From Escherichia coli (GTDB lineage: Bacteria; Pseudomonadota; Gammaproteobacteria; Enterobacterales; Enterobacteriaceae): a stretch of DNA of 64,000 nucleotides. Location of the stretch: the NCBI RefSeq assembly GCF_003334255.1, contig NZ_QOWU01000009.1. One strand, 5' to 3'. A program made the position numbers and the translations under genes. Shown piece after piece: positions 61,417 through 63,168 of the stretch. The number at the start of each line of letters is the position of its first letter. Within the stretch, counting starts at the first letter, position 1. A model generated the notes under the pieces. That model was given only the letters and a program-made list of their open reading frames with translations. It had not been told where the DNA came from and made no database searches.

Positions 61417-63168
<1,752 letters not shown>

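What the first reader, a model, noticed from the sequence alone, without database searches (positions are those of the whole stretch)
61650..61665. CRP-like motif in the divergent ulaG-ulaA control region
tgcgggtcgcgtcaca resembles the TGTGA-N6-TCACA CRP consensus (right half perfect, left half two mismatches) about 105 nt upstream of ulaA. The surrounding 354-bp spacer is AT-rich with several short direct repeats that could be UlaR operators; I could not assign those confidently.
Basis: inference. Interest (0 to 1): 0.3.

Follow-up and report, generated by a model that had tools for sequence, protein, structure and literature searches.

The report
Known CRP site of ulaA promoter
The motif is the already catalogued binding site through which the cAMP receptor protein CRP switches on the E. 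coli vitamin-C (L-ascorbate) uptake operon ulaABCDEF when glucose is absent, so it is a real but ordinary textbook-type element.

Summary
The 16-mer TGCGGGTCGCGTCACA is at 61650-61665, 105 nt before the ulaA ATG (61771), in a 354-bp, 35% G+C spacer between ulaG and ulaA.

As a bare 2-mismatch match it is not beyond chance: 17 such matches in the window against 26.5 expected.

As a 22-mer (ATTTGCGGGTCGCGTCACATTT) it scores 11.9 bits on a matrix trained on 65 other RegulonDB CRP sites. That is above 75% of the training sites and ranks 4th of 63,979 window positions.

The RegulonDB-derived Table S4 of Shimada et al. 2011 lists exactly this sequence as the CRP activator site of ulaABCDEF at -60.5.

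Among the window plus 79 other Enterobacterales species:
- T, G, G of the left half are invariant, its C is kept in 76/80, and TCACA is kept in 78/80.
- The six central bases take 45 different forms.
- The distance to the -10 hexamer is 59 bp wherever my pattern found the hexamer (67 of 68; 60 bp in one).

This points to a class I-type CRP activator site of a weak sigma-70 promoter. Its promoter-proximal edge abuts conserved TGATT/AATCA repeats that are probably the UlaR operators.

Verdict: observation confirmed, interpretation supported, already known, low interest.

The parts
61647..61668 (.). 22-bp CRP binding site ATTTGCGGGTCGCGTCACATTT. The core is 61650-61665, the left half TGCGG is 61650-61654 and the right half TCACA is 61661-61665. 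Centre 61657.5.
   Evidence: Sequence. Matrix score 11.9 bits, rank 4 in the window. Identical to the RegulonDB site for ulaABCDEF at -60.5, activator. Half-sites at least 95% conserved, centre 48%.
61683..61688 (+). Inferred -35 hexamer TTGTTG of the ulaA promoter (3 of 6 matches to TTGACA).
   Evidence: Inferred from 17-bp spacing to the -10 hexamer and the RegulonDB site position. Columns at least 90% conserved. Too weak to be called by the consensus scan.
61706..61711 (+). Inferred -10 hexamer TAGAGT of the ulaA promoter.
   Evidence: Starts 59 bp after the start of the CRP 22-mer in 67 of the 68 sequences where the pattern TA[GT]A[GA]T was found, and 60 bp in one. In the other 12, TACAGT, TAAAGT or a similar hexamer sits at the same offset in the printed sequences. 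Conserved.
61718..61718 (+). Inferred ulaA transcription start (an A). This places the CRP centre at -60.5 and gives a 53-nt leader.
   Evidence: Arithmetic from the RegulonDB position -60.5 and the site centre 61657.5. Consistent with the -10 hexamer at -12 to -7. The start was not measured here.
61668..61705 (.). Conserved block on the ulaA side, probably the UlaR operators. It has pentamers at 10-bp period: AATCA 61669-73, AATCT 61679-83, TGATT 61689-93. It overlaps the -35 hexamer and the promoter spacer, and begins 3 bp after the CRP core.
   Evidence: Conservation at least 90% for TAATCA, AATCTT and GTGATTA. Direct repeat of the ulaG-side block. The same pentamers occur in the UlaR decoy TGATTAATCATGAACAATCA. 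The assignment to UlaR is inference.
61447..61473 (.). Conserved block on the ulaG side, AATCAATATGTGATTGGTTTTGATTAA, probably the UlaR operators. It overlaps the predicted ulaG -35 hexamer and lies 232 bp from the ulaA-side copy.
   Evidence: Repeat family D1. Pentamers at 61447, 61457 and 61467 conserved at 0.93-0.97. Predicted ulaG promoter.
61431..61460 (-). Predicted ulaG promoter (ATCACA, 18 bp, TATCAT). The CRP site lies about 230 bp upstream of it.
   Evidence: Consensus scan, the only promoter-like hit in the spacer. A prediction only.
61582..61594 (-). Candidate IHF site, TAACTAAATGAAT as read on the + strand. It has 2 mismatches to YAANNNNTTGATW and lies near the midpoint between the two operator blocks.
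   Evidence: Matches with at most 1 mismatch cluster at this alignment position in 29 of 80 species, with perfect matches in several loci, e.g. L005 and L012. Weak in E. coli itself. Inference.
61771..63168 (+). ulaA coding sequence (PTS ascorbate transporter subunit IIC), first gene of ulaABCDEF and the regulated target.
   Evidence: ORF and translation. RefSeq annotation of matching E. coli genomes.
60352..61416 (-). ulaG coding sequence (L-ascorbate 6-phosphate lactonase), divergently transcribed.
59489..60244 (-). ulaR coding sequence (DeoR-family repressor of the ula regulon).
   Evidence: Annotation.
61393..61408 (.). Second CRP-like box, GGTGATACTTTTCACT, inside ulaG codons 3-8. Shimada et al. 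assigned it to their SELEX-chip peak. Probably not a functional site.
   Evidence: Matrix score only 7.4 bits. Its conservation follows a period-3 coding pattern.

Best explanation
The sequence at 61647-61668 is the binding site for one cAMP-CRP dimer upstream of the ulaA promoter, and it works as a class I-type activator site.

Activation. When glucose is absent and cAMP is high, CRP binds centred about 60.5 bp upstream of the ulaA transcription start (about 61718). From there it helps RNA polymerase to a promoter with a poor -35 hexamer (TTGTTG, 17 bp, TAGAGT). By analogy with lac, this would be through contact of its activating region 1 with the alpha subunit C-terminal domain, which would dock on the A+T-rich DNA between CRP and the -35 hexamer.

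Repression. The same stretch and the -35/spacer region carry TGATT/AATCA repeats that are most likely UlaR operators. A matching set lies 232 bp away at the ulaG promoter. So UlaR, in a loop helped by IHF, holds the promoter shut until L-ascorbate-6-phosphate releases it. CRP then sets the level of expression. CRP sits about 230 bp from the ulaG promoter and should not activate it directly.

Shown here: the sequence, its matrix score, its identity with the catalogued site, its conservation and its fixed geometry.
Taken from the literature: CRP dependence of ulaABCDEF, CRP binding to this spacer in vitro, and UlaR/IHF looping.
Inferred: the start point, the -35/-10 assignment, the alpha-CTD mechanism, and the UlaR and IHF site assignments.
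For: - Exact identity with the RegulonDB entry: ulaABCDEF, activator, -60.5, core TGCGGGTCGCGTCACA.
- ulaA is listed among the RegulonDB CRP targets recovered by CRP genomic SELEX, with a peak in the ulaG/ulaABCDEF spacer.
- CRP is described as an activator of ulaABCDEF, citing Campos et al. 2004. A V. cholerae crp deletion mutant fails to grow on ascorbate.
- Matrix score 11.9 bits, higher than 75% of 65 independent known sites. It is the best hit in the spacer and the 4th best in 64 kb.
- In 78 of 79 other species the best hit of the whole spacer is the orthologous one.
- Among the 80 sequences, T4, G5, G7, T15, C16 and C18 are invariant. A17 and A19 are kept in 79/80 and C6 in 76/80. The central six bases take 45 different forms.
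- The -10-like hexamer starts 59 bp after the 22-mer start in 67 of the 68 sequences where my pattern found it. Meanwhile the distance to the ATG varies from 107 to 139 bp.
- A divergent E. coli lineage changes the centre (GTGCGACG) but not the half-sites.
- The -35 hexamer matches consensus at only 3 of 6 positions, as expected of an activator-dependent promoter.
Against: - The core alone is no better than chance, and a comparable score arises in 7.6% of shuffles of the A+T-rich spacer.
- I could not read the primary paper (Campos et al. 2004, PMC355983, not held). I therefore do not know whether this box was footprinted or mutated, or only inferred from sequence plus crp/cAMP genetics.
- Shimada et al. 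attributed their SELEX peak to a different box, 61393-61408.
- ulaA does not appear in the main text or held supplements of the CRP ChIP-exo study I checked. The ascorbate operon may simply have been repressed by UlaR in those cultures.
- -60.5 is one base off the canonical -61.5, and the start point is inferred.
Confidence: 0.88

Rival explanations
1. CRP does bind here, but its main role is architectural. The roughly 90-degree CRP bend would cooperate with IHF and UlaR in shaping the repression loop between the two operator sets, or UlaR would block a bound CRP as CytR does. In this reading classical class I recruitment of RNA polymerase is not the main function.
For: The conserved AATCA pentamer at 61669-73 starts 3 bp after the CRP core. 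The operator sets are 232 bp apart, about 22 helical turns. Spacer length is tightly held at 351-370 bp in most of 79 species. The suboptimal left half-site is itself conserved.
Against: RegulonDB records the site as an activator, and CRP is reported to activate ulaABCDEF. The fixed 59-bp distance to the -10 hexamer and the weak -35 hexamer are what class I activation requires. The two roles are not mutually exclusive.
Confidence: 0.07
2. The conservation reflects another protein, for example an outer UlaR operator arm. The right half TCACA would be part of the imperfect palindrome TCACATTTAATCATAA / TTGTGATTACTTTTGA, and the resemblance to a CRP site would be incidental.
For: Inverted repeat I1, arms 61661-61676 and 61686-61701, 75% complementary. 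The core match alone is at chance level.
Against: This does not explain the invariant TTGCG seven variable bases upstream of TCACA, which is the spacing and symmetry of a CRP dimer. The ulaG-side copy of the operator block has no counterpart of TCACA. The site is catalogued as a CRP site, and the spacer binds CRP in SELEX.
Confidence: 0.03
3. It is a chance match with no function. CRP control of ulaA would be indirect or act through another box such as 61393-61408.
For: 17 matches observed against 26.5 expected for the 2-mismatch core. P = 0.076 in spacer shuffles. Shimada et al. picked the other box for their peak.
Against: Half-sites are near-invariant across 80 species while the centre is saturated with changes, and the site is the top spacer hit in 78 of 79 species. 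The other box scores 7.4 bits, lies inside ulaG codons downstream of any ulaG start, and shows only coding-type conservation.
Confidence: 0.02

Closest known systems
CRP site of the E. coli K-12 ulaA promoter (RegulonDB: ulaABCDEF, activator, -60.5; from Campos et al. 2004, J Bacteriol 186:1720)
   Same: The 22-mer and the downstream flank are identical. The listed 42-mer atgtggaattATTTGCGGGTCGCGTCACATTTaatcataaat matches window 61637-61678 at 41 of 42 positions, in the same gene context.
   Different: One base in the upstream flank (window G61637, K-12 A). The window is an E. coli strain other than K-12: no E. coli record listed reached 100% identity over the 601-bp query 61300-61900 (highest shown 99.8%).
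Class I CRP-dependent promoters such as lac P1 (CRP at -61.5)
   Same: A single CRP dimer about 61 bp upstream of the start, one near-perfect and one imperfect half-site, a weak -35 hexamer, and activation relieved of a specific repressor by the pathway's own inducer. The lac comparison is from established knowledge.
   Different: The centre is given as -60.5, not -61.5. The repressor is the DeoR-type UlaR with four operators and an IHF-assisted loop across a divergent promoter pair, not LacI. The operator block abuts the CRP site.
Divergent sugar regulons with a DeoR-family repressor plus CRP (e.g. the deo, glp, fuc and aga systems of E. coli)
   Same: Repeated short operators at about 10-bp period, looping between distant operator sets, and CRP as co-activator (general knowledge; repeats).
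   Different: Here CRP is reported to act on only one of the two divergent promoters. That point is from the Campos et al. 2004 abstract as I recall it, and I did not verify it here.

Membership tests
CRP (cAMP receptor protein) DNA site | 22-bp two-fold symmetric sequence with a TGTGA-N6-TCACA core | tested here: met
   8 of 10 core positions match, 6-bp spacing, TTT flank on the right. Matrix score 11.9 bits, above 75% of 65 known sites.
CRP (cAMP receptor protein) DNA site | The G:C pairs contacted by the recognition helix are present in both half-sites (G5 and G7, and their symmetry mates C16 and C18) | tested here: met
   G61651, G61653, C61662 and C61664 are present. All four are invariant in 80 of 80 sequences. 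The contact assignment is from established CRP-DNA structural knowledge.
CRP (cAMP receptor protein) DNA site | Orthologous sites keep the half-sites while the central spacer drifts | tested here: met
   Left half 0.99, centre 0.48 and right half 0.99 identity to the window, against a spacer mean of 0.56. 45 distinct central hexamers.
CRP (cAMP receptor protein) DNA site | cAMP-CRP binds the DNA in vitro or in vivo | not testable with these tools
   Literature only. A CRP genomic SELEX peak lies in the ulaG/ulaA spacer, but its resolution does not single out this box and the authors named another box. ulaA is not mentioned in the ChIP-exo paper checked.
CRP (cAMP receptor protein) DNA site | Expression of the target depends on crp/cAMP | not testable with these tools
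   Literature only. RegulonDB mode is 'activator'. CRP is described as an activator of ulaABCDEF, citing Campos et al. 2004. The primary paper is not held.
Class I CRP-dependent promoter | Site centred near -61.5 (or one or more helical turns further upstream), on the same face as RNA polymerase | tested here: met
   Given as -60.5, which matches a start at A61718 seven bases after TAGAGT. The distance from the site to the -10 hexamer is 59 bp in 67 of the 68 sequences where my pattern found the hexamer. The start itself was not measured here, and the centre is one base off canonical.
Class I CRP-dependent promoter | Core promoter too weak to work alone (poor -35 hexamer) | tested here: met
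   TTGTTG matches TTGACA at 3 of 6 positions and TAGAGT matches TATAAT at 4 of 6. The promoter is not called by the consensus scan.
Class I CRP-dependent promoter | Activation needs CRP activating region 1 and the alpha C-terminal domain | not testable with these tools
   Needs CRP AR1 mutants and alpha-CTD truncation in vitro.
UlaR (DeoR-family) operator, for the neighbouring repeats | Sequence shared by the four operators, two per promoter | tested here: inconclusive
   TGATT/AATCA pentamers at 10-bp period lie in two conserved blocks, with 6 copies against 2.5 expected (P = 0.035). They match the pentamers in a published UlaR decoy. Four operators are stated in PMC3219644. The published operator coordinates could not be read.

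The most novel reading that the evidence does not exclude
The imperfect promoter-distal half-site is itself under selection. C at position 6 is kept in 76 of 80 species and position 8 is almost never the consensus A. Yet a consensus left half would add 5.6 bits, and the neighbouring bases are saturated with changes. This would mean the site is tuned to be weak. CRP occupancy at ulaA would then need high cAMP, or would depend on the abutting UlaR operator (AATCA 3 bp away), giving a CytR-like anti-activation or cooperative switch rather than two independent inputs. Alternatively, TTGCG together with the conserved A61644/T61645 is read by a second, unidentified factor.
Probability: 0.2. Interest if true: 0.3.

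Novelty: already known. Interest (0 to 1): 0.07.

Why it matters
It matters little beyond annotation. The site couples L-ascorbate uptake and catabolism to catabolite repression in E. coli, and it has been in RegulonDB for about two decades.

This check adds three things:
- A cross-species footprint (79 other Enterobacterales species plus the window) that supports the catalogued box over the alternative box named in a SELEX study.
- The observation that the CRP-to-promoter geometry is almost invariant across these sequences.
- Positional suggestions for the UlaR pentamer repeats and for the IHF site, whose location at this promoter pair is described as unknown in a 2024 preprint.

Tried and rejected
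- Primary paper. I tried to read Campos et al. 2004 by DOI, PMC id and PubMed id; it is not held. A full-text search for the 16-mer and its reverse complement found nothing.
- ChIP-exo study of Crp (PMC5957442). No mention of ula genes in the text or held supplements.
- Supplements of the UlaG family paper. No operator, CRP or IHF text.
- Simple mismatch count as a test of significance. Rejected as uninformative and replaced by a trained 22-bp matrix.
- The alternative CRP box at 61393-61408. Rejected as the functional site because it scores 7.4 bits, lies inside ulaG codons, and shows only period-3 conservation.
- The matrix hits at 61684-61705 and 61452-61473 (9.5 and 9.0 bits). Considered as extra CRP sites and rejected, because they are the two copies of the TGTGATTnnTTTTGA repeat and fit UlaR operators better.
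- The third repeat copy at 61533-61547. It is not conserved (0.32), so it was not counted as an operator.
- Exact IHF consensus. Absent from the E. coli spacer, so only a weak candidate could be named.
- My first attempt at extracting spacers used a frame-shifted ulaA query and a wrong regular expression. This was corrected.

Full report
**What is at the coordinates**

Window 61650-61665 reads TGCGGGTCGCGTCACA.

The surrounding genes:
- ulaR, 59489-60244, minus strand
- ulaG, 60352-61416, minus strand
- ulaA, ATG at 61771, plus strand

The spacer 61417-61770 is 354 bp and 34.7% G+C. The site ends 105 nt before the ulaA ATG.

The window is an E. coli chromosome. The 601-bp stretch around the site is found in 5,221 of 5,426 complete E. 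coli genomes at 90-99.8% identity.

**Is it more than chance?**

As a bare pattern, no. Matches with up to 2 mismatches occur 17 times in the window against 26.5 +/- 5.7 in shuffles.

I therefore built a 22-bp palindromic weight matrix from 65 RegulonDB CRP sites (Shimada et al. 2011, Table S4, part 1). The ula site was not in the training set.

- The 22-mer ATTTGCGGGTCGCGTCACATTT (61647-61668) scores 11.9 bits.
- That is above 75% of the training sites and 4th of 63,979 window positions. The top hit is the known aspA site.
- Shuffles of the whole window give 1.4 +/- 1.0 positions this good.
- The spacer is A+T-rich, however, and 7.6% of dinucleotide shuffles of the spacer alone reach this score.

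So the match alone is suggestive, not decisive.

**Literature**

- Table S4 of Shimada et al. 2011 (PMC3105977), which reproduces RegulonDB, lists ulaABCDEF, activator, -60.5, atgtggaattATTTGCGGGTCGCGTCACATTTaatcataaat, core TGCGGGTCGCGTCACA. The only difference from the window is one flank base at 61637.
- The same paper lists ulaA among the RegulonDB CRP targets that its CRP genomic SELEX recovered.
- For that SELEX peak, however, the authors named a different box, AGTGAAAAGTATCACC. This is the reverse complement of window 61393-61408, inside ulaG codons 3-8.
- A 2020 preprint states, citing Campos et al. 2004, that CRP activates ulaABCDEF while UlaR and IHF repress. It also shows that a V. 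cholerae crp deletion mutant cannot grow on ascorbate.
- Other papers confirm the UlaR/IHF repression picture and four UlaR operators.
- The primary paper (PMC355983) is not held. I could not check whether this box was footprinted or mutated.

**Comparison across species**

A scan of one genome per species with UlaG returned 80 loci from Enterobacterales, from Escherichia to Hafnia, Serratia and Enterobacillus. Of these, 79 have the divergent ulaG/ulaA arrangement, with spacers of 351-440 bp, most of them 351-370 bp.

- In 78 of 79, the best matrix hit of the whole spacer is the orthologous site, scoring 9.3-16.2 bits (median 13.6).
- Over the 80 sequences including the window, T4, G5, G7, T15, C16 and C18 are invariant. 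A17 and A19 are 79/80 and C6 is 76/80.
- The six central bases take 45 different forms.
- As identity to the window, the left half is 0.99, the centre 0.48 and the right half 0.99. The spacer mean is 0.56.
- A divergent E. coli lineage shows the same thing within the species: the centre is GTGCGACG and the half-sites are unchanged.

This pattern is the expected mark of a dimeric protein reading two half-sites 6 bp apart. It rules out a chance match.

The box at 61393-61408 scores 7.4 bits and shows only period-3, coding-type conservation. The catalogued box is therefore the better candidate for the SELEX signal.

**Geometry and mechanism**

- With the centre at 61657.5 and the catalogued position -60.5, the start is A61718.
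- That fits a -10 hexamer TAGAGT (61706-61711) at -12 to -7, and a -35 hexamer TTGTTG (61683-61688) 17 bp upstream.
- The -35 hexamer matches consensus at 3 of 6 positions, and the promoter is not called by the consensus scan. This is typical of an activator-dependent promoter.
- The -10-like hexamer starts 59 bp after the start of the CRP 22-mer in 67 of the 68 sequences where my pattern found it, and at 60 bp in one.
- The other 12 sequences did not fit the pattern. Their printed sequences show TACAGT, TAAAGT or a similar hexamer at the same offset, which I judged by eye, not by count.
- By contrast, the distance from the site to the ATG ranges from 107 to 139 bp.

I therefore read the site as a class I-type CRP activator site. 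This is inference from the geometry plus established knowledge of lac-type promoters. The role of AR1 and alpha-CTD is untested. CRP lies about 230 bp from the predicted ulaG promoter (61460-61431), too far for direct activation.

**The neighbouring repeats**

TGTGATTnnTTTTGA occurs at 61455, 61533 and 61687. The outer two belong to conserved blocks:
- 61447-61473, at the ulaG -35 hexamer
- 61668-61705, over the ulaA -35 hexamer and promoter spacer

The two blocks are 232 bp apart. Each holds AATCA/TGATT pentamers at 10-bp period. There are six in the spacer against 2.5 +/- 1.5 expected (P = 0.035), and five of the six are conserved at 0.93 or more. A published UlaR decoy, TGATTAATCATGAACAATCA, carries the same pentamers. 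I take these blocks to be the UlaR operator pairs; this is inference.

The first pentamer on the ulaA side (61669-61673) starts 3 bp after the CRP core. UlaR and CRP, or the alpha-CTD, may therefore compete or touch.

IHF-like matches cluster at 61580-61594 in 29 of 80 species, near the midpoint of the two blocks. The E. coli copy has two mismatches. A 2024 preprint says the IHF location at ulaGp is unknown.

**An oddity**

The left half-site is held in a suboptimal form: TGCGT in 50 sequences and TGCGG in 18. Only 2 of 80 have the consensus T at position 6 and only 4 of 80 have A at position 8. Among known sites, T at position 6 and A at position 8 each occur in 72%, and a consensus left half would add 5.6 bits. 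This suggests tuning of affinity or an overlapping second reader. I have no test for it.

**Verdict**

The element is the already catalogued CRP activator site of the ulaA promoter. Novelty: already known. Interest is low. The residual uncertainty is that site-level experimental proof could not be verified from the papers available here.

Noticed in passing
window 61582-61594: Candidate IHF site. Matches to YAANNNNTTGATW with at most 1 mismatch cluster at this alignment position in 29 of 80 species, and are perfect in several loci (e.g. L005, L012). The E. coli copy TAACTAAATGAAT has 2 mismatches. It lies near the midpoint between the two operator blocks. A 2024 preprint calls the IHF location at ulaGp unknown.
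   Followed up: partly
window 61447-61473 and 61668-61705: Two conserved blocks, 232 bp apart and in direct orientation, each with AATCA/TGATT pentamers at 10-bp period. They are probably the four UlaR operators. The same pentamers occur in a published UlaR decoy.
   Followed up: partly
window 61650-61654, with 61644-61645: The non-consensus left half-site is itself conserved: C at position 6 in 76 of 80 sequences, and A at position 8 in only 4 of 80. Two bases just outside the 22-mer (A61644, T61645) are also at least 95% conserved. This suggests tuned weak affinity or a second reader.
   Followed up: partly
window 61393-61408: A second CRP-like box, GGTGATACTTTTCACT, lies inside ulaG codons 3-8. 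Shimada et al. 2011 named this box for their CRP SELEX peak. It scores only 7.4 bits and shows coding-type conservation only.
   Followed up: yes
window 61498-61501: GCAA is at least 90% conserved within an otherwise variable part of the spacer. Unexplained.
   Followed up: no
window 61722-61746: The inferred ulaA leader holds two overlapping inverted repeats, ATTCCG/CGGAAT and CCGGGT/ACCCGG. These columns are poorly conserved across species, so a conserved leader structure is unlikely.
   Followed up: partly
L081 (E. coli E138, NZ_AP022351.1) 2830-3760: In one of 5,221 E. coli genomes, an IS1-family element replaces the spacer from about window 61633 onwards, with loss of the CRP site and of ulaA through most of ulaE.
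   Followed up: partly
window 34234-34255 and 34346-34367: Identical 22-mers AAAAGTGCTGCAAAGCACAGAC lie 112 bp apart. Each contains the palindrome GTGCTGCAAAGCAC. They turned up as equal-scoring matrix hits.
   Followed up: no
window 8984-9005, 10253-10274, 10303-10324, 10364-10385: Other high-scoring CRP-matrix hits. 10303-10324 contains the catalogued aspA CRP site at -90.5 (TGTGAAATAGATCACC). 10253-10274 contains the reverse complement of a second box (AGTGATCCAGATTACG) that Shimada et al. list for the aspA peak. The other two were not examined.
   Followed up: no
L001-L080, ulaG-ulaA spacers: Spacer length is tightly held: 351-370 bp in 73 of 79 species, despite about 44% sequence divergence. 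This fits a looping constraint between the two operator sets.
   Followed up: partly
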